Source: Eledone cirrhosa (taxonomy: Eukaryota). From it: a stretch of 64,000 bases of DNA. The stretch covers positions 188,666,001 through 188,730,000 of the forward strand of contig OZ024741.1 in assembly GCA_964016885.1 (NCBI GenBank). The letters run 5' to 3'. Shown one piece after another: positions 25,431-62,667 of the stretch; position 1 is the first letter of the stretch, and every line of letters begins with the position of its first letter. Below the pieces are notes generated by a model, which saw only the letters and a list, made by a program, of their open reading frames with translations, did not search any database and was not told where the DNA came from. The translations under genes were made by a program, and so were the position numbers.

Positions 25431-25480
<50 letters not shown>

Positions 25481-25593: not shown

Positions 25594-25624
<31 letters not shown>

Positions 25625-29719: not shown

Positions 29720-29834
29720 TCTGTTTCAACACACGTTTTCAGATAAGAAATCTTGCAAAACAAATTTAAAAACGAATATATATAGATTTCTCATGAATGA
29801 AACAGTTCTAGTCCTGTAGAAGCTTTTCTCTCTC

Positions 29835-29869
<35 letters not shown>

Positions 29870-30174
29870 GTAAAGTACCATACCATGTTTCAACCATTTA
29901 GATGTCCTACCAACCTCCTGATACTTTATGACCATTGCTAAACATATAACCAATACACCACTAGTATGATTGTTCTGATTTAGAAGATGGAGCTGTGAAG
30001 ACGTTGAAACATTAGTACACACATGGACTTAGAAATGCTACTGTTCTTAACTAAGCAAAAAGAATTAATAAGGAAATATGAAAAAAATCTTTTATAAAAA
30101 TGATCAAACTGGAGCACAGTTATGTTTCCAATACAACTTTGAGAGAAAATCTGTTCCCTAATCATATATATATA

Positions 30175-30608
30175 TAGACGGTAGCCACAGAGTAGGCAGA
30201 CACAGAAAAACCTGGGACGACTTGATAAATTCCGACTTCACACACTTACACTTCTCCAAGACAATGTCACTGGACTGAGATCTACACAGTAATACAAAAG
30301 ACCCGCCTTGCCTAAGTACAAAGCGAAACCTACAGTCAGTAGGCACCTCTTAACAAAAATACACCCTCGTCCCACTACCCCCACCCCATCCCTTTCGATG
30401 TAAAGTTATGTTGGTACCACAACATCCTGTCCAAAATAAATGAGGTCGTGTAGGTGTTACGACAAAAAAACACACAGTCCACGTTGTAATGTGGCCATGT
30501 AGGTAACACGGTAAAAACCTCCCAGTCCACACTGTAAATGTGGTTGGTGTTAGGAAGGGCATCCAGCCATAGAAAACCCGCCAAACAGTCCTATACGAGC
30601 AAGACAAC
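30175..30608 (+). mobile_element. 5'-truncated RTE LINE end
   Basis: Homologous to 48045-48195 (ORF end) and the RTE 3' UTR. Confidence 0.75.
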
Positions 30609-37361: not shown

Positions 37362-37439
37362 GGTTCATCAAGCACTACTGAAATTTTGCTCAGAGTTGAC
37401 CCCAAGGGATATTTCTTTTACTGGAAAATTGAAGGAAAG
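37362..37439 (+). CDS. PLCB: PLC-beta coding exon 2 (PH domain)
   Basis: Pyrimidine tract + TAG acceptor; GSSSTTEILLRVDPKGYFFYWKIEGK (typical PLC-beta LRVDPKGYFLYW motif); GT at 37440; phase 0/0. Confidence 0.93.
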
Positions 37440-39256
37440 GTTTGTATAATTTGAATATCTCAAATCTTAACTTTTATTACAATACAAATTTATTAAATGA
37501 GCTATATCAATAGAAGATGTTAAAAATTAATTAGAAAATTAGCTCTTAACATATTGAAATGATTTGACACAAGATATTTAAAAACTAGTTTGTTAATTCA
37601 AATGTTTATAGTAACTAACTTGTGAAAATTTGCAATATTAGAGTAAGACATTAATTTTTAATGTGATGCAATCATAGTATTGTTTTGTACATTTCAAGAA
37701 TGTTTTGTTAATGCGGTCTTGTGTGGTACAGGACATTAAGAATTAATGAATTGCTTTTGTTATCACTGTTGTTGTTGGTTACTAACAATCATGTTTGCCA
37801 AAATGGTTTTAGGTCCTTATGCAATTCTGAGCAGATGCAGACCCTCTCTCAGCTCGCCCACTCTTAAGTTCTCTTCTCAAATGATTCTCATGAACTGAAG
37901 CAAATGTTAAATTAACTGAACAGTGAAATCAACAAATTAGAACTAAAATCAAATATAAAGAAAACACAATTCATGTTACACAACCATGCAATAAGTAAAG
38001 TCATCAAAGTCAACCATGATACTATTATAACAACTAACAAATATATCTTGGACAGCTGGCAAACATAAAATACAGTAAAATATAGGAAGTAAAAGAATGG
38101 ATTCAAGCTAGATGATGTATTTTTGGTAAATTGAATGACATCATGTGAAATAAGATGCTATTATGCCTGAAGCATGGACTGTTTGACAGCAAAAACTTAT
38201 GGAATAGAACAATAATCGTTGGCTAAAAACCGGAGCTTAGAACACAAAAAAGAATGGAAAGATTTATGTTAGGAATAAAAATGGTTAGAAAACAGCAGTA
38301 AAAGCAAACATTATAAAAGATATTCATTATCATCATTATCCTTACCATTTTATATCTATTTTCCATGCTTGCATGGGTTAGATTGATTATCACATTCCAA
38401 GGTCAGATATGCCAGATAACTGTGTCTTGCCTATATGTTCCTTTTTGGCATTGTTTCTATAGCTGGATGCCCTTCCTAACATCCATGACAGGTACCAGGT
38501 GCATTTTAAAATGAGGCAATAGAAGTGAGCAGGGCATATAGCATGAACAAATGGCAACAGATGGACAAAGTTATGTACAGAATGGGAACCAAGAGAGACA
38601 CGTTCAGATAGTCAAGAAAAACGAAGGACAAGCTGGAGTGATGAGATTGATAAGTTTATGAGCATTTTATGCCATGCTTTTCAGCAAAGAGTTATGGCCC
38701 TTTATGGTCTGAGTTCAAATCCTGTCCAGGTTAACTCCACCTTTCATCATTACGGGGTCGATAAAACAAAGTACCAGTAATACACTAGGATAATTGCTGG
38801 CCTTGTGCCAAAAGTAGAAACAATTATATGGATCAAAGTAGCACAGGATAAGAATAATTGGCACTAGTGTGGGAGGAGGGGATCTTTGATTTGTAGTGGG
38901 CAGTTAATAGCTGAGAATGATGACTAATAATAGAATATTTCTAATTCTAATTTGTAATAATTATGTACTTAACCCTTTAGAATTTAGATTACTCTATATT
39001 TATTATTATATTTTCACGGTAATGGCTTTATCTCACATAATATCGAATTTATGAGATTTTGATATTATTTATTTTGAGAACCTTAACATAAGTATGAGCT
39101 GCCAGTTACAGTCAGTTTGAACAGAAAAGGGGGAGACAATTCTGGCCGGATATGGCTAAAGAGTTAAAAGATGTCGTTTTTATGCTGAATATTATGCAAT
39201 GTAGATCTATATCAGTAAGTATATGATTTGATGTGTGTTGTGTCTTGCATTTTTAG

Positions 39257-39328
39257 GAAGATGTTGAAATCTTGGATTTAGCTTACTTGAGAGATACAAG
39301 AACAGGAAAATATGCAAAACTACCAAAG
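39257..39328 (+). CDS. PLCB: PLC-beta coding exon 3 (PH domain)
   Basis: TTTTAG acceptor; EDVEILDLAYLRDTRTGKYAKLPK (PLC-beta RDxRxGKYAK motif); GTAAAC donor at 39329. Confidence 0.93.
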
Positions 39329-39944
39329 GTAAACTTTCATTAATGTTTTGGACTATATAATTACTATTATCTAGTTCATAATATTAGTATTATTGACTAT
39401 GTAATTAGTATTATGGATAATGATGATGACTGTGCAATCCCAAACTTGATAGATTTTAACAACCTACCTTTTATTTGATCAATATTCTCATTATTATTAT
39501 TATTTTGCATTGCTGATAATGATTCCCCTCTCTTTCTCTAACCTGATTTGCTTTCATCAATCAGGAATCAAGCTACCAACTTTTCTTCTCATTAATCTGC
39601 TTCTTTTTTCATCACTCTACCTCTGTTTTCATCAGTTTATCTCACTTTTCATCAATCAGCTCTCTTTCCATTAACCAGCTTCTTTTTTCCTCAATCTACC
39701 TTTCCTTCTCAATAACTTGTCTGTGTTTCAACAGCCCCCTTTATATTTACTAATTTTCTTCTATAAACCATCTTCCTCTCTCTTTCCACCTCTCCTTCCT
39801 TTCTTCGTCCTTTTCTCCCACATGTATACAACACAATTCAACTACATCAGTTTAATAAGTTTCCAAACATTTCATTCAATTTATATAGTTTATGATCTGA
39901 ATTTTCAGACAAATCCATTCTACTACAATGACTGACATTAACAT

Positions 39945-40370
39945 GTATCTAAATTTTGTTCCTCTACATGTGAATGTAATTTTGTATCTATCTACATGTG
40001 AATGTAATTTTGTATCCTTCTGCATGCGACCAATCTCTGTTCCTTAACACATGACTGTATTTCTATTCTTCTACATGTGACTGTAGGATTTCCTTCCTAT
40101 ACATATGACTTATAATCTTTTGTCTCTTTACATGTGAATGATTTTTCTGTCCTAGATATGAATGTATTTTCTCATCCCTCTACATGTAATGTATTTTTTA
40201 GTTCCTGTACATGTTACTGCCATCTTTTGTTCCTCTACATGGGATTGTAATTTTCTGTTCCCCTACATGGGAATGTAATTTTTGATCCCTCTACATGTTA
40301 GTGTAATCGTTTTTGTATTTATATCTGACAGTAATTTCTCATCCCTATACATGTGAATGTAATGTTTTCA
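39945..40370. repeat. Degenerate ~30-bp tandem repeat (CTCTACATGTGAATGTAATTTT...) directly upstream of exon 4
   Basis: Recurring TACATG(T/G)GA(A/C)TGTA motif. Confidence 0.7.
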
Positions 40371-40394
40371 CCTGTTTTAATTCTCCTTACACAG

Positions 40395-40538
40395 GAAAAA
40401 AAAGTCAAGGAGGCTGGCTCTAACTTTGGCTCTTCGAACATTCCACTTGGAGACAAATGTTTTACAGTTTGCCATGGTTACGACTACATAGAATTGGAAT
40501 GGCTTCATTTCATTGCAGAAAACGCTGACGTGGCAAAG
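40395..40538 (+). CDS. PLCB: PLC-beta coding exon 4 (PH domain)
   Basis: CAG acceptor; EKKVKEAGSNFGSSNIPLGDKCFTVCHGYDYIELEWLHFIAENADVAK; GT at 40539; phase 0/0. Confidence 0.93.
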
Positions 40539-40939
40539 GTACAATATTGAATTTTACCAATCTCATTTTAAAACTTTTCCAAACTGCTAATCTCATCTAT
40601 TTTGTAAACAATATATTATTGTCCCCTTTCTTGTTGCGCCCTTGTGGCTAATAAAGAAATCAATATATTAACCCATTCATTACCATATTATATTTAGAGA
40701 CAAAACATTTATTAAACTTTTCATTATTGTATTTCTAATGAAATACACTGCCTTTGTGTTTCAATTGACTTGAATTAATTCTTCATGCTGTCACATACTG
40801 GATGTTCCACTGGATAGAAGGAAGGAGAATTGAGAGGGTGTCTGTGTCTGCTTTCAACTGTATGAGCTCCTAAAATTCTTAGTGAAAGCATAGAGCATAA
40901 GTCATACTCAATTATGAGTGACTGCTGTAATAATAATAA

Positions 40940-40983
<44 letters not shown>

Positions 40984-41304
40984 CATACTCTACTATTTAA
41001 TTTAATACTAGTCTGTCAAGCTCACACTATATGCAAATAAGTATCATCTAAAATATATTATTTTCAAAATCTCTTGGAAGCTTTAACTTCTATACCCCAG
41101 TTCTGAGTAAGTAAGCATCAATAATGATAGAGTAACTATCCTAAAATACTAGTATTTAGCATTCACATAGAACCACAGAAGTACCTGTTATGTAACCATA
41201 CCTTAAAATACTCACTGCCCAACATATGACAGATATAGGAGTTCAGTTCCTAAAAGCATCTGTCAACTTTGTTTTCCATTTCCTGGAGTATTTTACTTGC
41301 CTTA

Positions 41305-41765
41305 TTCAACTATTATACAGAACTAATGAGAAATCTACAGATACTCCACCCTGAATATACTTTCAGATTTATACATGTGATTATTGGGGCACTGGGATAT
41401 GTTAGTAACTGCCTCAGCACAAATCTTGAGAAGCTAGGCTTCACAGAAACAGAAAGAACACGACTAGTTAGGAAATTACAAGTACAATCCATTAATGGAA
41501 CAGTAAAAATATGTAAAACATTCCAAAAATTCTGCATCTAATAACTGCATATACACTTGTACAGATACAAAGCATATGCACATGCACACATACAACACAA
41601 AACATACACATCCATACCTGCACACGCATGCATGCAGACAAACATACATATCTACCTAGTTGATGTTGTGTAAATTCCAATGAGAGAGTCTTGTGTCTAT
41701 GTTAGAAACCGACTCTCTCTCTATTGGAAAAAAATTGTGAAATTATAAAACCAGAAGAACATACA
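41305..41765 (+). mobile_element. 3' end of an RLE-type (R4/Dong-like) non-LTR retrotransposon ending in (TACA)n
   Basis: YTELMRNLQILHPEYTFRFIHVIIGALG..LEKLGF..LQVQSINGTVKICKTF; homologous to 57675-58310. Confidence 0.7.
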
Positions 41766-43498
41766 TACATATATACATACATAATGAAGTAGAAGGCAAC
41801 AGATTATAATTTAACCACATTTTATATATTGTATGATAGCTGTTATATGTATTTCAATGGCATCTGTTACTTAATTGTAAATCTTTAGATGCAGTCTCTT
41901 TAGACAGCTCCCACCTGTATAAATTTTAGAGATGTAATTTAACACCAAAGCCTAACCCTCGATATATAACAAAATTTACATCACTAAAATTGATATACTG
42001 TGTGCATCAATGTTGACCCTTTGAATAACAGGTACAATTTATTTTTGCCAGCTGAGTGACCTGAAGCAATGTGAAATAAAGTGTCTTGCTCAAGGATACA
42101 ATGTATCACCAAGAATTGAGCTAACAACTTTACATTCATCAACTGAACATCCTAACCACAAAGCCACACATACACATTAGCACAAACGTACTTAACATGT
42201 ATGCATAACACACATTAACACAAAAATATATAACAATAGGCACAATTATATACACACACATATAATACATATTCATATGTACTAATTCTCTAATATGCAT
42301 GCACACATTGGTGTATTGACAGAGAACAATTAATTACCAGTGGATATCAGAGGGGGAAAAAATGATCACTTATGAATATAGCAAGCTAATTTAAAGCAGG
42401 TGGCAGAGAACACAAGAGTAAGGTCATACGTACTCTTGTACAGCTTGACAACAATTCCTTCTTTTCTAGCTTCCTTTTTTTCCTGTTCTTCCTCTCATTC
42501 TTCTTTTCTCCCTCTCTTCCTTCCTTCTTTCTTTCTTTCCTTTCTTTCGTCAGTTACTCAACTTTCTCTAGTCAGTTGTATCTAGCAATGAGTGACCACA
42601 CCTGTTGATGTCTAGATAACACCCAGGGATATAAGACATCACTTTTTGTTTGTCACACACCCATGGCAGTAGTTGACCTCAGCACTGATGAGATTTGAGC
42701 AACCGAAAAACTTGAGGCTGTGAAGGTGACTTGAGCCAAAGAGGAAAACTTCAGCCAATGGGGAAGGGAGCCTTGAGCCAATAAGAGGGACTTCAAAGAA
42801 AGAGAGAATTGAGCCAATGAGAAAGAGAGAGAGAGAGACGAATAAAGGAAGGAGACATGAGTCAAGGAGGGAGTCTTTATGTGATTATTCGAGTTGCTAG
42901 AAACATCAGCCAAAGCTCCCTTAAATCAGACATACTACCTCCTTAAATAAGGAAGGAGATGTGAGACAAGGTATTTCTAGATACTGTATGTATGAAAAAT
43001 AAACTGGATGATCATAGCAGGAATAGGTTTAATCCTGACTTTATTTGATCGAGACTTTACATAGTGTAATGGATGCGTTTTATGGTGGCACCAACACTAG
43101 AGAAATTGTCTTATCAACTGAACGGTTAAACAGACCTTGCTACTCTGCAGTTTCTATTCTTTCAAGGTAGACATGAATACAGAGGCTGGTATGAAGGAGA
43201 GTGATGATCAAGAAAATAGTATGATTTGAATATGACAGGGGAAACAGAGTGACAAGTTGGTAGGGACGAGAGAGTGACATTGGTCGATGGGAAGTTGAAT
43301 AGGAAAACAATATAAGCAACATGGCAGGGATACTAATAAAGATGTGTCATGGTAAGAGAGAGTTAGTAATGAGTACCACAAGGAAGTGGGAATGGTAAAT
43401 GTCAGCAAGATGGTGAGGAGAATAAGAAATAAAGAATAATGTGAATATGATCAGAAATCAATGTTACAGTGATGGTAAGAGAAGGGTAGTGAGAGAGA

Positions 43499-43537
<39 letters not shown>

Positions 43538-43904
43538 TGAGAGAGAGAGAGAGAGAGAGTAAAGTAGTGCTAGTTCTGGAAAATAGATGAGATGGTTATG
43601 ACTAAAATATCTTTAATCATAAGTCTGCTGGATAAGATCTGACCTAGAGTTAAACAATAATAAAAATAATTGTTTCTATTTTTGGCACAAGGCCAGCAAT
43701 TACCCAGTACATTACTGGTACTTTATTTTATTGATTCCGTAAGGATGAAAGGCAAAGTTAACCTCGACAGGATTTGAACTCAGACCATAAAGGGATGTAA
43801 CTATGCTGAAAAGCATGGCGTCTGACCCTCCACCGATACTGCCAATTGACTGCCCAATAATAAAAATAATACAAAATAGTCAATGATAGTTTATTTGTTC
43901 ACCT

Positions 43905-46470
43905 GCTCACTGGTTTACTTGTTCACCTGGTCACTGGTTTACCTGTTAACCTGGTCACTGGTTTACTTGTTCACCTGGTCACTGTTTCACCTGTTCACCT
44001 GGTTACTGGTTTACTTGTTCACCTCGTCACTGGTTTACTTGTTCACCTGGTCACTGTTTCACCTGTTTGCCTGCTCACTGGTTTACTTGTTCACCTGGTC
44101 ACTGGTTTACTTGTTCACCTGGTCACTGTTTCACCTGTTTGCCTGCTCACTGGTTTACTTGTTCACCTCGTCACTGGTTTACTTGTTCACCTGGTCACTG
44201 TTTCACCTGTTTGCCTGCTCACTGGTTTACTTGTTCACCTGGTCACTGGTTTACTTGTTCACCTGGTCACTGTTTCACCTGTTTGCCTGGTCACTGGTTT
44301 ACTTGTTCACCTGGTCACTGGTTTACTTGTTCACCTGGTCACTGGTTTACTTGTTCACCTGGTCACTGTTTCACCTGTTTGCCTGGTCACTGGTTTACTT
44401 GTTCACCTGGTCACTGTTTCACCTGTTCACCTGGTCACTGGTTTACTTGTTCACCTGGTCACTGTTTCACCTGTTCACCTGGTCACTGTTTCACCCGTTC
44501 ACCTGGTCACTGGTTTACTTGTTCACCTGGTCACTGGTTTACTTGTTCATCTGGTCACTGGTTTACCTGTTAACCTGGTCACTGTTTCACCTGTTCACCT
44601 GGTCACTGGTTTACTTGTTCACCTGGTCACTGTTTCACCTGTTCACCTGGTCACTGTTTCACCTGTTCACCTGGTCACTGGTTTACTTGTTCACCTGGTC
44701 ACTGGTTTACTTGTTCATCTGGTCACTGGTTTACCTGTTAACCTGGTCACTGTTTCACCTGTTCACCTGGTCACTGGTTTACTTGTTCACCTGGTCACTG
44801 TTTCACCTGTTCACCTGGTCACTGTTTCACCTGTTCACCTGGTCACTGGTTTACTTGTTCACCTGGTCACTGTTTCACCTGTTCACCTGGTCACTGGTTT
44901 ACTTGTTCACCTGGTCACTGTTTCACCTGTTCACCTGGTCACGGTTTCACCTGTTCACCTGGTCACTGGTTTACTTGTTCACCTGGTCACTGTTTCACCT
45001 GTTCACCTGGTCACTGGTTTACTTGTTCACCTGGTCACTGTTTCACCTGTTCACCTGGTCACTGTTTCACCTGTTCACCTGGTCACTGGTTTACTTGTTC
45101 ACCTGGTCACTGGTTTACTTGTTCATCTGGTCACTGGTTTACCTGTTAACCTGGTCACTGTTTCACCTGTTCACCTGGTCACTGGTTTACTTGTTCACCT
45201 GGTCACTGTTTCACCTGTTCACCTGGTCACTGTTTCACCTGTTCACCTGGTCACTGGTTTACTTGTTCACCTGGTCACTGATTTACTTGTTCATCTGGTC
45301 ACTGGTTTACCTGTTAACCTGGTCACTGTTTCACCTGTTCACCTGGTCACTGGTTTACTTGTTCACCTGGTCACTGGTTTACCTGTTAACCTGGTCACTG
45401 TTTCACCTGTTCACCTGGTCACTGGTTTACTTGTTCACCTGGTCACTGTTTCACTTGTTCACCTGGTCACTGGTTTACTTGTTCACCTGGTCACTGGTTT
45501 ACCTGTTCACCTGGTCACTGGTTTACTTGTTCACCTGGTCACTGTTTCACCTGTTTGCCTGGTCACTGGTTTACTTGTTCACCTGGTCACTGTTTCACCT
45601 GTTAACCTGGTCACTGGTTTACTTGTTCACCTGGTCACTGTTTCACCTGTTCACCTGGTCACTGGTTTACTTGTTCACCTGGTCACTGTTTCACATGTTA
45701 ACCTGGTCACTGGTTTACTTGTTCACCTGGTCACTGTTTCACCTGTTAACCTGGTCACTGGTTTACTTGTTCACCTGGTCACTGTTTCACCTGTTCACCT
45801 GGTCACTGGTTTACTTGTTCATCTGGTCACTGGTTTACTTGTTCACCTGGTCACTGTTTCACCTGTTCACCTGGTCACTGGTTTACTTGTTCACCTGGTC
45901 ACTGGTTTACTTGTTCACCTGGTCACTGGTTTACTTGTTCACATGGTCACTGTTTCACCTGTTCACCTGGTCACTGGTTTACTTGTTCATCTGGTCACTG
46001 GTTTACATGTTCATCTGGTCACTGGTTTACTTGTTTATCTGGTCACTGGTTTACTTGTTCATCTGGTCACTGTTTCACCTGTTCACCTGGTCACTGGTTT
46101 ACTTGTTCATCTGGTCACTGGTTTACATGTTCATCTGGTCACTGGTTTACTTGTTTATCTGGTCACTGGTTTACTTGTTCATCTGGTCACTGGTTTACTT
46201 GTTCATCTGGTCACTGGTTTACTTGTTCATCTGGTCACTGGTTTACTTGTTCATCTGGTCACTGGTTTACTTGTTCATCTGGTCACTGGTTTACTTGTTC
46301 ATCTGGTCACTGGTTTACTTGTTTATCTGGTCACTGGTTTACTTGTTCATCTGGTCACTGGTTTACTTGTTCATCTGGTCACTGGTTTACTTGTTTATCT
46401 GGTCACTGGTTTACTTGTTCATCTGGTCACTGGTTTACTTGTTCATCTGGTCACTGGTTTACTTGTTCAC
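43905..46470. repeat. 24-bp minisatellite, ~107 copies (TCACTGGTTTACTTGTTCACCTGG and variants)
   Basis: Direct inspection; the 8-aa periodicity of the spurious 879-aa ORF confirms the 24-bp period. Confidence 0.95.
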
Positions 46471-47138
46471 CTATGTAACTTTTCACCTGCTCATCTGTTT
46501 GCCTGTTCACCTATTTAGCTGATCACTAGTTTACCTGCTACACTATTGACCTGCACACATGTTTTTCTGGTCACCTATTTACCAGTTCATCTATTTACAT
46601 ATTCACTTGCTCACCTGTTCACCTGTTCATCTGTTCATCTGTCAGTTAACAAGTTATAAATTAGAGGAAACGAAATCTTAGATTAAGTTGATGTTTCATA
46701 TGTCTTTGGCTTATAAACCTTGGCTGGGCGACACTGGTTGTCATGGTTACAAACCAGTGCCTGTTTGTCTTGGTACTGATATTCAGCATCTGTTGTCATG
46801 GTTATGACAAGTTAAACTACATATACATACACACATATATACACTAACACACAACCACACAGACATGTCATAGTAGTTGTATTTGTTGTTGTTGTTGGCA
46901 GAATAATTCGTTAATCCAAGAACTGCAGCAGCAGCAACAATAACAACAAATATAATAACACAATAAAAAAAAAAAAAGCTAGTGTAGCCTGGTGTGGTAT
47001 TGGACCAATGAAAACACATGTAATCACTCTACTGAAGCAGTGGCGGTCTCTGGTGGGAAAACATTGGTTCAAGTATAGGCATATATATCTATATTTCTTT
47101 CTCCCCCACTCCTTCTTTCACTCTCTCACTCACTCTCT

Positions 47139-47211
<73 letters not shown>

Positions 47212-47250
47212 CACAAACACACATATATATTTGTATATTTATATATACGT

Positions 47251-47297
<47 letters not shown>

Positions 47298-47336
47298 CAC
47301 AAACACACATATATATGTGTATATTTATATATACGT

Positions 47337-47409
<73 letters not shown>

Positions 47410-47520
47410 CACAAACACACATATATATGTGTATATTTATATATACGTACACACACACACACATATATATATATATTTATACACAAACACATATATATGT
47501 GTATATTTATATATACGTAT

Positions 47521-47556
<36 letters not shown>

Positions 47557-47600
47557 TTATACACAAACACATATATATGTGTATATTTATATATACATAT

Positions 47601-47643
<43 letters not shown>

Positions 47644-47644
<1 letters not shown>

Positions 47645-49001
47645 CATCATCATCATCATCATCATCAACGTTTAACGTCCGTGTTCCACGCTTGCATGGG
47701 TTTGGACGGGGGTAGTCCCACTTGAGGCAAGAGTGATTGTCTTGCTCGCATAGGACTGTCTGGCAGGTTTTCTACAGTTGGATGCCCTTCCTAACACCAA
47801 CCACATTTACAGTGTGGGTCTGGGAGGTTTTTACCGTGTTGCCTACACGGCCACATTACAGCGTGGACTGTGTGTTTTTTTGTCGTGACACCTACACGAT
47901 CTCATTTGTTTCGGCCTCGAAGGCGCGGCACCAACATAACTTTACATAGAACGGGGTGGTGTGGATCGGGTGGGGGTGGGGGTGGTGGGACGGGGTGTAT
48001 TTTGTTAGAGATGCCTACTGGCTGGAGTAGGTTTTACTATATATTTAGGTAAGGCGGGTCTTCTCTGTTACTGAGTACCGCCAAAGGTCTCGGTCCAGTG
48101 ACATTGTCTTGGAGAGGTGTAAGTGTGTGATGTCGGAGTTTATCAGCTCGTCCCAGGTTTTTCTAGGTCTGCCTATTCCGTGACTACCGTCTATCTTTAT
48201 TGCCCTGCACTTTGTTATACAGCTATCGACTTTCATGCGCATCACGTGTCCATACCAACGTAGCCTTCTCTCGAGTAAACAACATCTGATCCCTCTTATC
48301 TCTAATTTTTTCCTTAGTTCGTTTATGCTTTGCCGTTCACGTATATTACTGTTACACATCCAGCGGAGCATGCAAGCTTCGTTCCTCTCTAGTCTGCGTA
48401 TATCCTCTGCACACAATGCCCAGGTCTCACTGCCATGCAGCATTGCTGTTCGTATGCAGGCATCGTACAACCTGCCTTTCATTTTTAGTGAGAACCCTTT
48501 AGCAGCTAATAGTGGTATAAGCTCTCTGAACTTTTTCCAACCAGTTCTGACTCTAGCTACAGTACTTTCAGAGCACCCTCCCCCACTGCTGATTTTATCG
48601 CCCAGGTAATGGAAGCTGTCCACTATTTCTATAGAACCCTCTGCGCAATTGAAAGAGCTAGTAGTTTGTGGGCACTTGCTGCTACTTATTGCACCAGAGC
48701 ACCGGCCACATGTAAAATCTATGTTCTTAGTTAGCTTACCTGTGATCCCACTACATCTTTTATGCACCCATACTTTGCATTTAGGACATAAAATGGAGTT
48801 TCTACCTACGCCTTTCCTACACACCGAGCACGACCATTTCCCAGAAGGGACCGCCGCCTTGTTTTCTTTCCTACAAACTAGTACTTTGGTCTTAGCCAGG
48901 TTAATTTTAAGTCCTTTTGACTCTAGGCCGTGCTTCCATGTTTGGAATTTCTTCTCTAGCTCGGCCATTGATTCCGCTATGAGTGTCAGGTCGTCTGCGT
49001 A
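47644..49001 (-). mobile_element. 5'-truncated RTE-clade LINE with open RT C-terminal ORF, inserted in a compound (TA)/(CA) minisatellite
   Basis: YADDLTL..307-aa ORF (48045-48968) with RTE motifs GSETW, RRLRWYGHVMR, GRPRKTW; 3' UTR and (TGA)n; the same ~60-70-bp flanking unit on both sides. Confidence 0.93.
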
Positions 49002-49056
49002 TATATATATTTATACACAAACACACATATATATGTGTATATTTATATATACGTAT

Positions 49057-49090
<34 letters not shown>

Positions 49091-49136
49091 TTATACACAA
49101 ACACATATATATGTGTATATTTATATATACATATAT

Positions 49137-49170
<34 letters not shown>

Positions 49171-49214
49171 TTATACACAAACACATATATATGTGTATAT
49201 TTATATATACGTAT

Positions 49215-49252
<38 letters not shown>

Positions 49253-49263
49253 TACCTGCCTTA

Positions 49264-49310
<47 letters not shown>

Positions 49311-49650
49311 TAGATATATGTATGCATTATTAACATCTATATTTCACATACAGTTTACACTTTCAGACATTTAGTTATAGGTAGGTCAATGCGTATGCAT
49401 GTATATGTATATGTGTGTGTATATGGATGTATGTTTGTATATATATATATACACACATATATATATAATTGTAGTACCGAGCATGTTTATGAATAAATAT
49501 GCATATGGAAGTCATATACAATATGTACACACACACATATATATAATTGTTAATGTTCCTATTTGGAATCTAAAGAAATACAATTAAGGGCAAAGTACTC
49601 AACACATGATGTAGAGTGGATATATTTGCATTTATTAAATTAATTCCTCT

Positions 49651-50067
49651 TGTAAGACTAGTTCTATTTCATACTTTGATAACTCATCTGAAATTTTAGA
49701 GAACAAACAGATTTAGTTCTGTAAAAGTAATTAATTCAAGTGAAACTTATGTGTATATATATCATCATTATGATATACATACATGCGGTGGATTGGCAGT
49801 ATCGGTAGAGAGTCGGATGCCATGCTTTGACGCATAGAGTTACGGCCCTTGCCATTCTGAGTTCAAATCCCGCCGAGGTTAACTTTGCCTTTCATCCTTA
49901 CGTGGTCGATAAAATAAAGTACCAGTAATGCACTGGGTATTTGCTGGCCTTGTGCCTAAAGTAGAAACAATTATGATATACATACATATATACATATATA
50001 TATATGTGTGAGTGTGTGTTAAAATCTCACGGGAAAAGGGGATATATCCAGAAAAATATGTTAATCC

Positions 50068-50102
<35 letters not shown>

Positions 50103-50574
50103 ACGAAGAAATCAGGTGGACCATAACGCACCAGAGTACTCAATACTTAGGGTAGTAGAGTGGGTAATAGGAAAAAAGTCAGGACCCCAACAGCTGAGTT
50201 CGGATCTAGCTGAGTTCTGGCTGCCGTTTCGACAGCTAGATCCGAACTCAGCTGTTGGAGTCCTGACTCTTTTCCTATTACCCACTCTACTACTCTAAGT
50301 ATCGAGTACTCTGGTGCGTTATGGTCCACCCGGTTTCTTCGTTATATATATATATTTATATATATATGGATTAACATATTTTTCTGGATATATCCCCTTT
50401 TCCCGTGAGATTTTAACACACACACATATATATATGTATATATGTATGTATATCATAATGATGATATATATACACAAGTTTCACTTGAATTAATTACTTT
50501 TACAGAACTAAATCTGTTTGTTCTCTAAAATTTCAGATGAGTTATCAAAGTATGAAATAGAACTTAGTTTTACA
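49651..50574. repeat. Composite ~360-bp-arm palindrome with a SINE inserted in the left arm only
   Basis: 49651-50212 (minus the SINE) is the reverse complement of ~50223-50574; the same ORF appears on both strands (50116 and 50147). Confidence 0.85.
49785..49969 (+). mobile_element. Full-length young family A tRNA-derived SINE with 18-bp TSD. Other copies near 5806, 14560, 33530(-), 35643, 38670, 43665(-), 54360, 54743, 62935, 63127
   Basis: TSD ATTATGATATACATACAT at 49767-49784 and 49970-49987; A box TGGCAGTATCGG, B box GAGTTCAAATCC. Confidence 0.88.
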
Positions 50575-50587
50575 TATATATATATAT

Positions 50588-51136
50588 CATCATCATCATC
50601 ATCATCATCGTTTAACGTCCATGTTCCACGCTTGCATGGGTTTGGACGGGAGTTTTCCCACTTGAGGCAAGAGTGGTTGTCTGGCTCGCATAGGACTGTC
50701 TGGCGGGTTTTCTACAGCTGGATGCCCTTCCTAACACCAACCACATTTACAGTGTGGGACTGGGAGGTTTTTACCGTGTTGCCTACACGGCCACATTACA
50801 GCGTGGACTGTGTGTTTTTTTGTCGTGACACCTACACGATCTCATTTGTTTCGGCCTGGATGTTGTGGCACCAACGTAACTTTACATTGAAAGGGGCGGT
50901 GTGGATGGGGTGGGGCTGGTGTGACGGGGGCGTATTTTGTTAGAGATGCCTACTGACTGTAGTAGGTTTACTTTGTATTTAGGCAAGGCGGGTCTTCTCT
51001 ATTACTGAGTACCGCCAAAGATCTCGGTCCAGTGACATTGTCTTGGAGAGGTGTAAGTGTGTGAGGTCGGAATTTATCAGGTCGTCCCAGGTTTTTCTGG
51101 GTCTGTCTACTCCGTGGCTACCGTCTATCTTTATAA
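50588..51136 (-). mobile_element. 5'-truncated RTE LINE end
   Basis: KIDGSHGVDRPRKTWDDLINSDLTHLHLSKTMSLDRDLWRYSV plus 3' UTR and (TGA)n. Confidence 0.85.
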
Positions 51137-51633
51137 ATATATAGAAATGAGATGATAGGACTGGGATCCCTATCATTCCACTGCAAAGTGGTCGTGGAGG
51201 TGCCACGGCAAAAAAGCACCCAGCACTCACTGTAAATGAGGTTGGTGTTAGGAAGGGCATCCAGCTGTAGAAATCAAGCCAGAATCAGTTCCCGTCCCAC
51301 CCTTGCAAGCAGGGAAAAAGTGGACGTAAAATGAAATGAATGAATATAGCAAGCAGAATAGACATTAAATGATGATGATGTTGGTGTCTTTTATATATAC
51401 ATATGTGTGTGTGTCTATGTATATATACATATATATACACACATACATATTTAGCAGAATTATTTCTTGGTGATTGTGCTATTGCTGATAGAACATAACC
51501 AGCTAAGCTCACACTATATACAAATTACCATTTCCGCTCAATGTTTTCTATTTGCTATATGCATTTCCAGCAAGTGACATCACACTAAATTCTATATAGA
51601 CTATATTCTGTTTCATGCCAGGATGTTTTTAGT

Positions 51634-51686
51634 GAGTGTTACTGATGAAAGATTAACAAATCTTGAAACAGTACTGTCTGACATTT
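51634..51686 (+). ncRNA. Putative canonical type I hammerhead ribozyme, sense in PLC intron 4
   Basis: AGTGTTA CTGATGA AAGATT-AACA-AATCTT GAAA CAG-TA-CTG TC TGACATT; intact core, GUC triplet, palindromic stem III (ACAGTACTGT). Confidence 0.75.
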
Positions 51687-52240
51687 TGAGAACATATTGG
51701 TAATTCTGTGATACATTCACAGAGGAAAATAGAGAAAAATGAATATGTTTTGTACCATTTCATTTCGTTACTTACAGATCTTTTTCTTCGACAGTGAGGC
51801 TACCCATATGTTTATTGTATATAAATGTATTATATATGTTTATATATGTTTTTATATACATCTCTATTATGCTTAAACACTGTCTTAGTATTTACACAAA
51901 CTAAATATATGTTTATATACAGGTGCGTAACTTAGTGGTTAGAGAGTTGGATTTGCAATCGTGAGGTTGAGAGTTCAATTCTCAGACCGGGTGACACATT
52001 GTGTCCTTGAGCAAGACACTTTATTTCACATTGCTCCTTCGGCCAGGAATTGCGACTACTAGATTATATCAGCAATGGAAAGACCAATGGACACATTGTT
52101 TCCTTGGTCCGATTTGTCGAGGTCCACCCCACTCAGCAAGCGAATGAGGTCTGGGATCTTATCGATCAATGAGAGCCATATATACACATTCAATCCTACC
52201 ATGTCTGATTACCTTTTCTTTATTGTTATCATTGAAACAG

Positions 52241-52380
52241 AAATGGACAGAGGAGGTGTTCAAATATGCCTACAACCTTCTCTCTCTCAACAAGAACCAG
52301 TTGGGTGAATGGGAGAAACTTTACTTCAGGTTAACAACTGTAGAAGTTGAAGGTGGAGGAAAGAAAGTCCCCGTCAAAGC
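52241..52380 (+). CDS. PLCB: PLC-beta coding exon 5 (end of PH, start of EF hands)
   Basis: CAG acceptor; KWTEEVFKYAYNLLSLNKNQLGEWEKLYFRLTTVEVEGGGKKVPVK+GC; GTGAGT donor at 52381; phase 0/2. Confidence 0.93.
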
Positions 52381-52947
52381 GTGAGTATCACTTCTTCATA
52401 GCAACATGTACAAGTTTATACATGTGTATTCAATTTTTTTTTTAACTTCCTTCCCTGACCTTCTCACACTACTCTTACATGTATCTGTTCTCTTCTTATC
52501 TGAACTTTCCTGAAGAAGGACTTCTGTCCAAAATGTTGAAACCTCCTCCACTTTCACCAAGCATGAACCTAATATAACTCTGTAAAATTGCATCTTGGGT
52601 TTTGTTTGTTTCATTTATTAACTATATATATAAATATATCAGATTAGAGATAGTAATAACCAGTTAGACCATTACTCACCAGATACTCGGGGTAGTAGAG
52701 TGGGTAGTATGAAAAAATTCCGGACCCTGACGGCTGTTTCAATGCCTGTGCATGTGTTTTTATTGGCAGCATGACCCTCCCAAAGTATAACAATATCTGT
52801 TTCAACACACGTTTTCAGATAAGAAATCTTGCAAAAGAAATTCAAAAACGAAATATATATATATATATAACAAAGGAAATGTGGTAAGGAACCAGGTGGA
52901 CCATAACGCACCAAAGTACTCAATACTTAGGGTAGTAGAGTGGGTAA

Positions 52948-53061
52948 TAGGAACGAGTAGGACCCCGCCGGCTGAGCTCAAGCCGTTTCGACGGCTAATT
53001 CTGGACGTCCAGAATTAGCCGTCGAAACGGGTTGAGCTCAGCCGTCGGGGTCCTACTCGTT

Positions 53062-53066
<5 letters not shown>
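52948..53066. repeat. Near-perfect 119-bp palindrome from the same family as the 50 kb fold-back
   Basis: TAGGAACGAGTAGGACCCCG..AATTCTGGA-CG-TCCAGAATT..CGGGGTCCTACTCGTTCCTA. Confidence 0.85.
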
Positions 53067-53087
<21 letters not shown>

Positions 53088-53095
<8 letters not shown>

Positions 53096-53812
53096 TAAAC
53101 GGAATAGAAAATGCTGACAAATTGTTCACAGTTGAAAAATGGTTTAATTAGGAATAAAAGAGTATTAGTGATTGTATGGGTTAATATTCAGTTGTGGTTT
53201 TAAGTTTTTAAGTTTTTACCGGTTGCGCATTTCTAAATGCTTTTCAAAAATAATTTTGAGATAGAGTGTCCGTGCTGTTTGCTCTGATCTGATCTGATTA
53301 GTTTTGGGGATTCTACCTGTTTTTATGTTAAAAAAGTGGCTCCAGCGTTACTTTGGTGTTGCAAAAATTCTTATTCACATGACCTCTACCGACCAATCAA
53401 AATTGTTTTGACCACAAGAATTTTTGCAAACACCAAATAACGCTGGAGCCACTTTTTTAACATAAAAACAGTCTTGGCGCAAAATCAATTTTTAACATTC
53501 ACATGACCTCTACTGACCAATCAAAATTGTTTTGACCACAAGAATTTTTGCAACACCAAAGTAACGCTGGAGCCACTTTTTTAACATAAAAACAGGTAGA
53601 ATCCCCAAAACTAATCAGATCAGTGCAAACAGCACGGACACTCTATCTCAAAATTATTTTTGAAAAGCATTTAGAAATGCGCAACCGGTAAAAACTTAAA
53701 ACCACAACTGAATACTAACCCATACAATCACTAATACTCTTTTATTCCTAATTAAACCATTTTTCAACTGTGAACAATTTGTCAGCATTTTCTATTCCGT
53801 TTACCAATATAT
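53088..53812. mobile_element. Fold-back element (~280-bp arms) with a tandem partial duplication in the spacer, Penelope-like architecture
   Basis: Arms ~53088-53372 and ~53540-53812; direct repeat ~53374-53471 / 53497-53595; (TA)n flank. Confidence 0.8.
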
Positions 53813-53842
53813 AATAACTTGTGTGTTACACCTCTATTCTTT

Positions 53843-53903
<61 letters not shown>

Positions 53904-54097
53904 ATATATATATGGTTGTTTGTGTCTGGCTGGTTCATCCACAGATTTGATGTGATTTTTGTTGTTAACACAGATCTGAGAATCAGGCAGACTTGAAGTC
54001 TGGTCAGGGGTATCAACCCAGATCATGAGCCAGCTGCTTGAGAAACATTTGTAACCAGGACAGCAATAAATCTCCTATGTATCATCTCCACTTTGTT

Positions 54098-54128
<31 letters not shown>

Positions 54129-54330
54129 CTAGCAGCAGTACCCAGTGTTGCCTGGGTAGGTAAAATAATATCTGCTTTGATGAAAAGGTGTTGATCTTAG
54201 CGACTGCATCTCGATGTCTCATCTATGGCCACCCACAGGCCATGCGGGGGAGGGTGGTGATGACCTCTATCACTGAGAAACGCGCGCGTGTGTGTGTGTG
54301 TATCCCGGGTTCTATCAGGGGTCATTATTA
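54129..54330 (-). mobile_element. Helitron 3' end
   Basis: Minus strand ACCCAG-GCAACA-CTGGGT hairpin followed by ACTGCTGCTAG|T. Confidence 0.55.
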
Positions 54331-55303
54331 CACTAAATTATCATTTTTTATTACACACCAGTGGATTGGCAGTGTCAGTAGAAGGTCGGACGCCATGCTT
54401 TGACGCATAGAGTTACGGCCCTTGCCATTCTGCGTTCAAATTCCGCTGAGGTTAACTTTGCTTTTCATCCTTACGGGGTCGATAAAATAAAGTACCAGTA
54501 ATGCACTGGGTAATTGCTGGCCTTGTACCAAAAGTAGAAACAATTATTTTGAGTTCAAATCCCGCTGAGGTTAACATTGCCTTTCATCCTTACGGAGTCA
54601 TCATCATCATCATCATCATCATCGTTTAACGTCCATCTTTCACGCTAGCATGGGTTTGGATGATAAAATAAAGTACCAGTAATGTACTGGGTAATTGCTG
54701 GCTTTGTGCCAAAAGTAGAAACAATTATTACACTAGAGGGCAGTGGATTGGCAGTATCGGTAGAGCATCAGACACCATGCTTTGCAGCATAGAGTTATGG
54801 CCCTTTATGTTCTGAGTTCAGTATCGGTAGAGCATCAGATACCATGCTTTGCAGCATAGAGTTATGACCTCTCTCCACACCACCAATGTTGTTCAAAAGA
54901 AAGGCAAAAGCCAATACAGCTTGGCACCAGTGACATGACAACTCATTTCTACTGAGGGAACTGGAACAATGTGGAATAAAGTGTCTTGCTCAAGAACACA
55001 ATGCAAAGCCCTGACTGAGAATTGAGCTCCCTACTTCATGATTCTAAGCCCAACGCTCTAACCACTAAACCATGGCCTGTATAAACTTCAATATAGTGTA
55101 TGATAGTGCTGTTGCATATCATTCAAGAATATCTTAGTAATATGGTTCTATGTGGTACAGGACGTTAAGAGTTAAACTAACAATTCATGGGCTTGATATA
55201 GTATTGTACCTGTTCTTTCATAATTTAAACCTAATTTGATCAAAGTCACCTAAAAAATTAACACACATAATGTAATTGTCGACTTTTTTTTTCTTTTTTT
55301 TAG

Positions 55304-55388
55304 TATTCAGAAATGTCTTTCCAAAGACAAAGATGACAGAGCCAAAATTTCAAAAGCTCTTGAAGGGTGTGGCTGGCCATCAGGAAAG
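55304..55388 (+). CDS. PLCB: PLC-beta coding exon 6 (EF-hand region)
   Basis: Poly-T + TAG acceptor; (A)IQKCLSKDKDDRAKISKALEGCGWPSGK; GT at 55389; phase 2/0 matches exon 5. Confidence 0.9.
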
Positions 55389-55934
55389 GTATTGTCTAAT
55401 CGCGCTCTCTCTCTCTCTTTTTTTTTCTTTTTTTTGGTATATTCACCTCCACTGCTAATGAGGTAACCTTACAAGTAAAAGCTATCAACCACTCCTTCTA
55501 GTGAACCATGTTTGTTTCATGTGTAATACTACAACTGACTACACCTGAGCATCTGTCACATATGAAGTCTACTGTATCAGTCTGTCTGTAATGCCACTAC
55601 ATCTCTTGTACATACAAGAACTACTGTATGGAGTATATACCTATTCTTTTCCTGTATATTAATTATGGTCATTTCCCTGTCAGTATTATCAAGATCTTAT
55701 CCTCTGTTGTAGCCAGGAGGACTAAAATAAACAGGAAGAGGATGAAAACTGAGATCTGATGCATTCCTATCTGCACTATAAATATATATATATATGTATC
55801 CAAAAAGTAAACAGAAATAACAAAGCAAACAACACAGTACAATGATACACACACACACATATATATTTACACAGACTGATAAAAAAATAAAGAGATACAG
55901 ATAAAGAGAATGATATATATATAGAGATTCTACC

Positions 55935-56330
55935 ACTGCTAGTTATAAAAGATTTACCCTTCAAAATGAAAGGCAGATTGTATGATGGTTGTGTACGAAC
56001 AGCAATGCCACATAGAAGTGATTTCTGGGCACTGTTTTCAGAGGATCTTCAAACATTGAAAAGAAATGAAGCTTGCATGCTCTGAAAGATATGTAATAGT
56101 AGTATACATAAACAGCAAAGTGTCAATGAACTGAGAGAGAAACTAGGCATAAAGGTGGACAGGAGTATACAGGAGAGATTTCAGTGGTATGGACATGGGA
56201 TTCATATGAAGCATAACAGCTGTATAAAAAGATGCAGGGCACTCAAAGTCGACAGAAACTATGAAACAGTAAGATCTTGCCCAATTAAACTTCACAAAAG
56301 AGATGACACAGGATCAAGATCTACTCCTAG
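55935..56330 (+). mobile_element. Degraded RTE LINE fragment
   Basis: Homologous to 12400-12830 (MKGRLYD..; QERFQWYGH..SCIKRCRAL). Confidence 0.7.
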
Positions 56331-57004
56331 TTTTCTAAGAGCCAACCAGATTATGGCACGAGGGACACATAAACAAATACCAGGTAGAGCAGTTTCTCTT
56401 AGCTAGGTACTTCTCCTGTAGTTGCATCACAAGGAAGAGACCATCTGTGGTACTTTTACTAGCACAAATCTGAACTGCATCTCATCTAGATTAACCCAGT
56501 CCTTAATCAGCTGTGCTATAACTCTTTCTGATATTTTTATGACCAGGTCCATCAACTTGAGGCCTCGATAGTTTTCTCTATGTACACACACATACACACA
56601 CACACATATTCATACACACTTTAATATAGAAATGGCTTCTACAGGACTAGAACTGTTTCATTCGAAGGAAATAATTGCTCTGCCTCACTATATCTCTTCT
56701 TTCTTTATCTGTCTATATACATACACATGTGTGTGTAGTTTTGGTGCTATACTAAAATATCCCCACTACATTACACTATGTAATGTGGTTGGGGTTAAGA
56801 ATGACATTTAGCAACAAAAACCATTGCAAAAATGAAATGTACAAGAAAAGCAGGCCTTTCTGTTAACTAACATTACAAACTGTGTTATTTTTTATTTTTT
56901 TTACATCTTGGGTCATTTTCATGATGTCTCGAGAAAAGCATGGTGACCCCACAGTGTCATCTTAAATTTCCATATTTTATATTATTATCTTTCCTTCCCT
57001 ACAG

Positions 57005-57105
57005 AATGACTCTATTGACATCAAGAAATTTGATTTCGACACTTTCTTCAAGTTTTATCTGTCATTGCTCAATCGGTCAGAAATTGATGGTATCTTCAAA
57101 GAACT
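57005..57105 (+). CDS. PLCB: PLC-beta coding exon 7 (EF-hand region)
   Basis: CAG acceptor; NDSIDIKKFDFDTFFKFYLSLLNRSEIDGIFKE+CT; GTAAGT donor at 57106; phase 0/2. Confidence 0.92.
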
Positions 57106-58351: not shown

Positions 58352-58515
58352 AACACAGAACAAAGGCACCATTAACACAGAGATGTTCAAAGACTTCCTC
58401 AACGAAATGCAGAGACATCCAAGTTTACATAAGACCCTTTTCCCACTTTACACTGATTCACAGTGTCAGACTTTGATTTCAGAATATGAGACTGCTGTCA
58501 ACAAAAAGGGAAAAA
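58352..58515 (+). CDS. PLCB: PLC-beta coding exon 8 (EF-hand region)
   Basis: TTTCAG acceptor; (L)TQNKGTINTEMFKDFLNEMQRHPSLHKTLFPLYTDSQCQTLISEYETAVNKKGK+A; GTGCGT donor at 58516; phase 2/1. Confidence 0.9.
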
Positions 58516-59564: not shown

Positions 59565-60155
59565 ATTAACACTGTCACATCAGTAAAGATAGTCTCTTTA
59601 GATTTTCTTAATACATTACTGAGAATAAAAATTTTCTTTAATTTCTCTTTTAAACCAGATCTTTTTTATAAATTCCAAATCAGGACTTGATAAACTGCTC
59701 CCTTTTCATGCTAGTTACCTCCAAGACCCCAACTATCTTCAGTCTTTGAACTGCCATTTTCCTCTGCAAAATTAGGAGGAGTGCATCCAGCCTGAGGAAA
59801 GACCCCTATGAGGGGGAGTGATTGATGCAGTGGTTGATGTCACTGGTTGTTCTCTGTGGTAATGCTTTTGCCATTTTGTCTGCAGGGCACAGCTAAAACA
59901 TACCAGCCAGACTAGGGTGTAGAGTCTGTTACTCCCACCCGCTTTTCCTTCTTATTTTTGCTATCTAAATTTGTTTCTCTTTTTTTTTTGTTTTTTCTTT
60001 TTTTTTTATAATGTGTATGAATTGTCAATATCTTTCTAATTCTATTACTATTTTGATATTGCCTCAACCACACCAAATTCATATTATATAAACCTCTAAT
60101 ATATGAACATCTATCTTTTTCCATTCCATATATCTATCTACCATAATGCTGATAG

Positions 60156-60161
60156 AAAAAG
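60156..60161 (+). CDS. PLCB: PLC-beta 6-nt microexon (AAAAAG), coding exon 9
   Basis: ...taatgctgaTAG|AAAAAG|GTAAGT; frame-preserving (phase 1/1); inclusion gives NKKGK-KKG-QLTKEG, matching my recollection of cuttlefish PLC21 (NKKGKKKGQLTKEG). Confidence 0.75.
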
Positions 60162-60325
60162 GTAAGTCTCCTTCAACTGTCATTGTATTAGCATGCTGAA
60201 AAAACAAAGAACAAACAGAAAAAAAAAGTTTTCCAATTAAATTTTAATTGACATCGATAACTTAATAATTTTGATAATTGTAATAAATAATTTCACTGGC
60301 AATCAATGTTTACTATTGATTGACC

Positions 60326-62520: not shown

Positions 62521-62667
62521 GCCAGCTGACCAAAGAAGGGTTGCTGTATTTCCTTATGTGTGAAGAGAACAATTTGACCCCAATGCATCGACTGGATTTA
62601 GGAGCCAACATGAAACTACCTTTGGCTGCTTACTACATAAATTCTTCCCACAACACCTACTTGACTG
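62521..62667 (+). CDS. PLCB: PLC-beta coding exon 10 (end of EF hands, start of catalytic X box); gene continues beyond window
   Basis: CAG acceptor; QLTKEGLLYFLMCEENNLTPMHRLDLGANMKLPLAAYYINSSHNTYLT+G with the PI-PLC catalytic SSHNTYL motif; GTAAGG donor at 62668. Confidence 0.96.

What the first reader, a model, noticed from the sequence alone, without database searches (positions are those of the whole stretch)
60110..60170. Hidden 6-nt microexon in PLC-beta with a neural-microexon-type UGC motif
Seen: exon 8 ends in phase 1 (...AAG GGA AAA A|gtgcgt) and exon 10 starts GC CAG. Between them lies TAG|AAAAAG|GTAAGT at 60156-60161, with a perfect donor, an upstream pyrimidine-rich tract, and a TGC a few nt before the AG. 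Inclusion gives AVNKKGKKKGQLTKEG; skipping gives AVNKKGKSQLTKEG, also in frame. Knowledge: as I recall, cuttlefish PLC21 reads NKKGKKKGQ here, and UGC motifs just upstream of the 3' splice site mark SRRM4/eMIC-regulated neural microexons. Inference: this may be a regulated switch that adds two lysines to a basic loop at the end of the EF hands of a phototransduction-type PLC. Gene predictors would probably miss it.
Basis: partly seen in the sequence, partly recalled or inferred. Interest (0 to 1): 0.75.

Follow-up and report, generated by a model that had tools for sequence, protein, structure and literature searches.

The report
Six-base exon in cephalopod visual PLC
An octopus-type genome hides a six-base exon, missed by every gene model checked, that would add two lysines to the eye's light-signalling enzyme phospholipase C; other molluscs carry optional, mostly acidic inserts at the same spot, and squids and octopuses appear to have turned it into a basic insert that is likely almost always included rather than switched on and off.

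Summary
The microexon is real: TAG|AAAAAG|GTAAGT at 60156-60161 has the best donor among 138 candidates in the intron and encodes exactly the two lysines found in squid and cuttlefish PLC21. All 17 transcript-, structure- or Logan-derived coleoid proteins include them; all 4 genome gene models lack them. No RNA of this organism was available, so inclusion here is inferred. A switch is not shown: no skipped transcript was seen, and skipping replaces a glycine kept in 25 of 25 other molluscs with Ser (octopods) or Arg (cuttlefish). New: clams and scallops have optional 15-21-base inserts at the same position (both isoforms annotated in 5 species), and two gastropods have two-residue inserts (EE, EK). 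The acceptor looks eMIC-type (229-nt AG-free zone, CUAAU at -60, UGC at -9), and the genome encodes the eMIC domain; UGC alone is weak (7 of 29 other acceptors have one). Best reading: an old optional mollusc microexon, made basic and likely locked in within the coleoid visual PLC.

The parts
58352..58515 (+). Exon 8 of the PLC21-type PLC-beta gene (EF3 to first helix of EF4); ends in phase 1 with A where other molluscs are inferred to end with G; weak donor AAA|GTGCGT
   Evidence: G inferred from insert peptides
59925..60153 (+). 229-nt AG exclusion zone in front of the microexon acceptor
   Evidence: 15 of 8884 AG-to-AG gaps in 164 kb are this long; 1 of 29 other acceptors of the gene exceeds it
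60096..60100 (+). CTAAT, candidate branch point at -60 (CUAAY type)
   Evidence: motif named in PMC8797185 section 10
60106..60135 (+). Pyrimidine-rich tract set back from the acceptor (73% C/T at -50..-21)
60147..60149 (+). TGC (UGC) at -9, candidate eMIC-type enhancer; weak evidence alone
60156..60161 (+). 6-nt microexon AAAAAG (exon 9), phase 1-1; adds two lysines and restores the Gly codon with exon 10
60162..60167 (+). Consensus donor GTAAGT, strongest of the 10 donors of the gene in the window
62521..62667 (+). Exon 10 (end of EF4 and start of the X box, …SSHNTYLT)
3538..57105 (+). Coding exons 1-7 of the same gene (3538-3636, 37362-37439, 39257-39328, 40395-40538, 52241-52380, 55304-55388, 57005-57105); the gene continues about 68 kb beyond the window

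Best explanation
The six bases at 60156-60161 have a consensus donor and encode exactly the two lysines that squid and cuttlefish PLC21 carry in the loop of EF hand 4; they are most likely a true exon, likely descended from an optional microexon at this intron of the mollusc Plc21C/beta1-type PLC, and likely included in nearly all transcripts in coleoid photoreceptors. Mechanism: the weak, set-back acceptor (long AG-free zone, branch point at -60, UGC at -9) is likely recognised with help from the neuronal Srrm234 eMIC isoform, and the strong donor completes exon definition (inferred). In the coleoid ancestor the last base of exon 8 changed from G to A (inferred), turning an E-K type insert into K-K and making the conserved glycine depend on inclusion, so the exon works as a lock rather than a switch. 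The result is a loop of net charge +5 instead of about +2, which would most likely tune membrane or G-protein contact of the EF hands (untested). Odds: real exon 0.96; included form dominant in retina 0.9; same origin as the gastropod and bivalve inserts 0.6; eMIC-dependent 0.55.
For: 17 of 17 coleoid sequences that are not genome models have K-K-K after the Gly (4 cloned-type database entries, 2 PDB chains that duplicate two of them, 11 Logan proteins standing for 68 contigs), and 4 of 4 genome models skip it. The S. pharaonis model also drops an 18-nt exon that every full-length transcript-type sequence has, so such models under-call small exons. Family spacing equals the skip length in 97 of 108 measurable non-cephalopod homologues, so the two residues are an insert. 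Inserts at the same position occur in 8 of 19 mollusc/nemertean groups examined; both isoforms stand in one RefSeq annotation for Ruditapes, Mercenaria, Argopecten, Pecten and Mizuhopecten; Haliotis XP_046551116.1 has EE and a caenogastropod-like Logan protein has EK. All 6 insert types start with a residue whose codon begins with G, as a phase-1 intron after G requires. Gly at the junction is kept in 25 of 25 named non-cephalopod mollusc segments and 70 of 81 non-norpA-type segments; the skip product has Ser in octopods and Arg in cuttlefish while the included form is invariant. Only two PLC-beta genes were found in the genome, this one and a norpA/beta4 type, and a gastropod exon finds this gene first. 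Both eMIC-coding exons are intact on C22.
Against: No RNA of this organism and no octopod transcript-derived sequence was available: inclusion in octopods rests on decapodiform sequences. Logan contigs drop rare variants and their tissues are unknown, so a minor or non-neural skip isoform is not excluded. The skip form is predicted to fold with the same EF4 elements, and Ser occurs at the Gly position in 2 of 81 natural segments, so it could work. The tree does not place the long coleoid branch inside Mollusca (support 0.12), so one-to-one orthology rests on gene content from searches that score only the best candidates. 11 of 19 groups show no insert, and the inserts differ in length (6, 9, 15, 18, 21 nt); recurrent origin at one site is common for neural exons. 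No genomic DNA of other molluscs was seen. Fly eMIC exons have weak donors and short introns; this one has a strong donor and introns of 1.6 and 2.4 kb.
Confidence: 0.55

Rival explanations
1. A live tissue switch: neurons and photoreceptors include the exon (K-K-G), non-neural cells that use this only Plc21C-type gene skip it (Ser or Arg form).
For: The site is alternatively annotated in 5 bivalve species; the eMIC-type acceptor is retained; only one gene of this type was found, so it may serve other tissues; skipping gives the ancestral loop length and a normal predicted fold; the 4 genome models could reflect real reads.
Against: 0 of 17 non-model sequences skip; the skip residue is not conserved (Ser versus Arg) and loses a Gly kept in 25 of 25 other molluscs.
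Confidence: 0.27
2. A plain constitutive microexon that arose separately in coleoids, needs no eMIC, and only coincides in position with the bivalve and gastropod inserts.
For: UGC is common (7 of 29 other acceptors); the donor is the strongest in the window; exon 8's donor is weak, which can favour inclusion; convergence at one site is frequent; 11 of 19 groups show no insert.
Against: The 229-nt AG-free zone with set-back tract and CUAAU matches the eMIC layout, unlike the gene's 18-nt exon, which has an ordinary tract and no UGC; a gastropod insert (EK) implies the same 6-nt pattern as the coleoid exon.
Confidence: 0.14
3. A chance AG-N6-GT: octopods really make only the skip form, and the two lysines are a squid/cuttlefish feature.
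For: All 3 octopod entries skip; a strong-donor look-alike of 5 nt occurs by chance in the paralogue's intron; no octopod RNA seen.
Against: All 3 are genome models, and the cuttlefish genome model skips too while cuttlefish transcripts include; exact-peptide match by chance about 1%.
Confidence: 0.04

Closest known systems
eMIC (Srrm3/4, Srrm234)-dependent neural microexons (PMC8797185: passages and section 10 read)
   Same: 3-27 nt, frame-keeping, long AG exclusion zone, UGC near the acceptor, CUAAY branch point, surface-loop insertion; regulator encoded in the genome.
   Different: Dependence on eMIC and neural-specific inclusion not tested; strong donor and kb-long introns are unlike fly targets; no skipped transcript seen, so it may be fixed rather than alternative.
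Vertebrate retina-enriched microexons, RetMICs (PMC9303857: passages read)
   Same: Microexon in a photoreceptor protein with upstream UGC.
   Different: RetMICs lie mainly in widely expressed cilia and trafficking genes of ciliary photoreceptors and are skipped elsewhere; this one is in the effector enzyme of a rhabdomeric cascade.
Squid and cuttlefish PLC21 (PDB 3QR0, 3QR1)
   Same: Orthologous protein; the K-K residues are already in these sequences.
   Different: That they come from a separate 6-nt exon was not found described.
Optional inserts in bivalve and gastropod PLC-beta-1-like RefSeq isoforms
   Same: Same protein position, phase-1 compatible, 6 nt in two gastropods.
   Different: Mostly acidic, 6-21 nt, Gly kept on skipping, both isoforms annotated.

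Membership tests
Microexon (3-27 nt) | AG and GT flanks, 3-27 nt | tested here: met
   TAG|6 nt|GTAAGT
Microexon (3-27 nt) | Present in spliced mRNA of this organism | not testable with these tools
   No RNA holder listed; three DNA-like runs only
Microexon (3-27 nt) | Encoded residues present in orthologous transcripts | tested here: met
   17 of 17 non-model coleoid sequences, all decapodiform
eMIC-dependent neural microexon | Long AG exclusion zone, CUAAY branch point, set-back pyrimidine tract | tested here: met
   229 nt, CTAAT at -60, 73% pyrimidine at -50..-21
eMIC-dependent neural microexon | UGC close to the 3' splice site | tested here: inconclusive
   Present at -9, but also within 25 nt of 7 of 29 other acceptors
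eMIC-dependent neural microexon | eMIC domain encoded in the genome | tested here: met
   PF15230 over cut-off on C22 and next exon 21 kb on, in phase
eMIC-dependent neural microexon | Included in neurons, skipped elsewhere | tested here: inconclusive
   0 of 17 skip, tissues unknown, contigs drop minor forms
eMIC-dependent neural microexon | Inclusion falls when eMIC is removed | not testable with these tools
   Needs knock-down or minigene
Coleoid PLC21 (Plc21C/beta1-3 type, not norpA/beta4) | Closest to 3QR0/3QR1; outside the norpA/beta4 clade; separate norpA-type gene in the genome | tested here: met
One-to-one orthologue of mollusc PLC-beta-1-like gene | Groups with other molluscs in a tree | tested here: inconclusive
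   Long branch, position unsupported (0.12) in FastTree; slower tree did not finish; gene content agrees

The most novel reading that the evidence does not exclude
An ancient mollusc neural microexon in the EF4 loop of Plc21C-type PLC was captured when coleoids recruited this enzyme for vision: one base change in the upstream exon flipped the insert from acidic to basic and made inclusion obligatory, so the correct visual PLC can only be made in cells with the neuronal eMIC splicing factor, a splicing lock that parallels vertebrate retinal microexons in an independently evolved camera eye.
Probability: 0.3. Interest if true: 0.66.

Novelty: new member of a known kind. Interest (0 to 1): 0.44.

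Why it matters
It corrects the gene model of a core cephalopod phototransduction enzyme (4 of 4 genome models checked are two residues short). It also offers a small, dateable case of how an optional microexon becomes fixed and changes charge when its host gene takes a new job, and a ready test of whether cephalopod photoreceptors, like vertebrate ones, rely on eMIC splicing. The class of element is well known and the protein sequence with the lysines has long been in databases, which limits the surprise.

Tried and rejected
RNA test: no RNA holder listed for window 58300-62700; the three runs laid behave as DNA of one sample, contain the microexon region without differences and show no exon joints; no evidence either way. 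My first idea that the gene is a retina-specific duplicate was dropped: no second Plc21C-type gene was found. The idea that the exon is the cut-off end of the ancestral exon (the norpA-type paralogue's exon also ends in AAAAAG) was dropped because the skip form, not the included form, has the family length. UGC as stand-alone evidence rejected. Structure models show no fold difference between forms (different species and lengths, so only a rough comparison). ESM Atlas added only the family name. The mixture-model tree did not finish. Fly/mouse table of PMC8797185: no hit for Plc21C, norpA or Plcb1 in the one supplementary file held; one 36-nt mouse Plcb4 exon listed, position not checked. Three papers were not held. 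PMC4255452, PMC7553075 and PMC11703226 (passages) held nothing on this exon. Earlier scan notes: none for this gene.

Full report
Observation. The window holds the first ten coding exons of a PLC-beta gene on the + strand; the rest follows within about 68 kb. Exon 8 matches PDB chains 3QR1 and 3QR0 best (E 1e-25 and 2e-24), titled L. pealei and S. officinalis PLC21. The genome is 3.0 Gb and the closest proteins are octopod gene models. Exon 8 ends at 58515 in phase 1, TAG|AAAAAG|GTAAGT has its exon at 60156-60161, and exon 10 starts at 62521. The donor is the best of 138 YAG-N(3-30)-GT candidates in the 4-kb interval (8.8 against 2.7, on a weight matrix whose frequencies I set from general knowledge). 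In 2000 Markov simulations of the interval, 25 gave an AG-flanked 6-mer encoding the needed residues and 11 gave any frame-keeping microexon with an equal donor. Strong-donor look-alikes do arise by chance: the paralogue's intron has a 5-nt one.

Is it spliced? No RNA of this organism could be laid. Among 21 coleoid proteins retrieved, the 4 genome gene models (two O. vulgaris, one octopod-like DDBJ model whose organism name was cut off, one S. pharaonis) read K-G-K-[S/R]-Q-L. The other 17 have K-G-K-K-K: 4 database entries from Doryteuthis, Loligo, Sepia and Watasenia (that these are retinal cDNA clones is recalled), 2 PDB chains that repeat two of them, and 11 Logan proteins standing for 68 contigs (RNA origin inferred because they span exons). 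Eight of the 11 (64 contigs) continue in frame with G-Q; three (4 contigs) carry one extra A. The cuttlefish pair is the key control: the genome model skips, the transcripts include, and Arg is what exon 8's last A plus the next exon would give. The same cuttlefish model also drops an 18-nt exon (DPDAAL) that I located in this genome. All 17 are decapodiform, so inclusion in octopods is an inference.

What the insert is. From the QR..P motif to SSHN the family spacing is 80 residues in 97 of 108 measurable non-cephalopod homologues (115 examined, 7 not measurable); the skip form has 80, the included form 82. AlphaFold places the two lysines in the loop between helix 273-287 and the short strand before helix 299-307, the loop of EF hand 4; the skip form is predicted with the same elements. 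Looking at isoform clusters (20 clusters, at most 15 members listed each), 8 of 19 groups have an insert at this very position: EQSSLDE in Ruditapes (8 of 10) and Mercenaria (5 of 6), GDVEP in Argopecten/Pecten (6 of 9) and Mizuhopecten (8 of 11), EEE in C. virginica (3 of 17, from an older annotation than the listed skip forms), DGTLEE in one Dreissena model (1 of 6 measurable), EE in one Haliotis species (1 of 5) and EK in a Logan protein that groups with caenogastropods. No insert was listed for M. gigas/angulata, Ostrea, Saccostrea, Mytilus, Mya, Patella, Biomphalaria, Physella, two nemerteans or the ENA set. All six insert types begin with E, G or D, as expected if the upstream exon ends in G at a phase-1 intron; I saw no genomic DNA for them. 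EK needs the same 6-nt pattern as the coleoid exon; only the upstream base differs (G gives E, A gives K).

Lock or switch. Gly follows the loop in 25 of 25 named non-cephalopod mollusc segments and 70 of 81 distinct segments without a crude norpA signature. In other molluscs skipping keeps it. In coleoids only inclusion keeps it, and the skip residue differs between lineages (Ser, Arg), tracking the silent position of the Gly codon, while the included peptide is invariant. That pattern suggests selection on the included form only. Loop net charge is +2 in mollusc skip forms, -1 to +2 with their inserts, and +5 in coleoid included forms. Against a strict lock: contigs drop minor forms, tissues are unknown, Ser occurs naturally at this position in 2 of 81 segments, and only one gene of this type was found, which may be needed outside the eye.

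Gene identity. Searches of the genome found two PLC-beta genes: this one and a norpA/beta4 type whose pieces lie on C794 and C14 (same gene inferred). A gastropod exon finds this gene first (E 3.7e-9 against 1.6e-8). A FastTree tree of 46 sequences and 813 columns puts the coleoid clade (support 1.0, long branch) outside norpA/beta4 but does not join it to other molluscs (support 0.12). Orthology to the mollusc beta1-like gene is therefore likely, not shown. PLC is a marker of the photoreceptor cluster in L. vulgaris (PMC9839350, passages; which PLC is not stated in them).

Regulation. PMC8797185 section 10 lists long AG exclusion zones, UGC near the acceptor, long pyrimidine tracts and CUAAY branch points for eMIC targets. 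Here the AG-free zone is 229 nt (15 of 8884 gaps in 164 kb are as long; 1 of 29 other acceptors of the gene is longer, in a simple repeat, with two spurious rows at one position dropped and downstream acceptors chosen by heuristic), CTAAT lies at -60, the tract is set back, and UGC is at -9. UGC alone is uninformative (7 of 29). The genome encodes both eMIC exons in phase. Fly targets have weak donors and short introns, which this exon lacks. eMIC dependence is inferred, about 0.55.

Function. EF hands of human PLC-beta3 bind G-beta-gamma on membranes (10.1101/2022.12.20.521270 and PMC13626650, passages); the residues named in those passages lie before EF4, so nothing read ties this loop to a partner. 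A role of the added charge in membrane or G-protein contact is my best guess and untested.

What is known. Microexons of this kind are a well-described class, including retina-enriched ones in vertebrates (PMC9303857, passages), and recurrent origin at one protein site is common (bioRxiv 10.64898/2026.09.05.749416, passages and section 10), which tempers the common-origin claim. Searches for microexon with cephalopod, octopus, mollusc, PLC or squid terms (listings seen) showed no description of this exon; most subscription papers are not searched, and the closed supplements of that preprint cover O. bimaculoides and may list it.

Verdict. Observation confirmed, interpretation partly supported. 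A real, unannotated 6-nt exon, new member of a known kind; the mollusc-wide site and the acidic-to-basic, optional-to-fixed shift add moderate interest (0.44).

Noticed in passing
L008:998-1015 (G000:C2:188760998-188761015): Second small exon of the same gene, 18 nt, encoding DPDAAL just after the C-terminal autoinhibitory-helix region (helix name recalled); ordinary pyrimidine tract, no UGC; missing from the S. pharaonis model, present in full-length transcript-type sequences.
   Followed up: partly
window 58511-58515 and 60156-60160; proteins P0013, P0015, P0017: Splicing joins two runs of five A into a run of ten in the mRNA. Three Logan proteins (4 of 68 contigs) show one extra A here and shift frame; most likely slippage during library making, since the long run does not exist in this genome's DNA.
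   Followed up: partly
G000:C22:28167743-28167880 and 28146435-28146461, minus strand: Two exons, 21 kb apart and in phase, encode the Srrm234 eMIC domain.
   Followed up: yes
G000:C794 (80-kb contig) and G000:C14:44651189-44653976: A norpA/PLC-beta4-type gene appears split between an unplaced contig and a chromosome; it has the same phase-1 intron, with no frame-keeping microexon of strong donor, but a 5-nt look-alike.
   Followed up: partly
window about 61390-62120: Very high-copy repeat inside the intron after the microexon (summed contig depth about one to two million).
   Followed up: no
window about 43890-46516: 2627-nt stretch of the + strand without any AG, inside intron 4; probably simple repeat.
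   Followed up: no
G000:C2:188795235-188795237 (L011:5235): 3-nt candidate TAG|GAG|GTGAGT behind an AT-rich repeat in a late intron of the gene; no protein support looked for.
   Followed up: no
L008:5931-6105: Octopod sequences carry a longer Gly/Pro/Lys/Ala repeat in the linker before the distal C-terminal domain than squid and cuttlefish.
   Followed up: no
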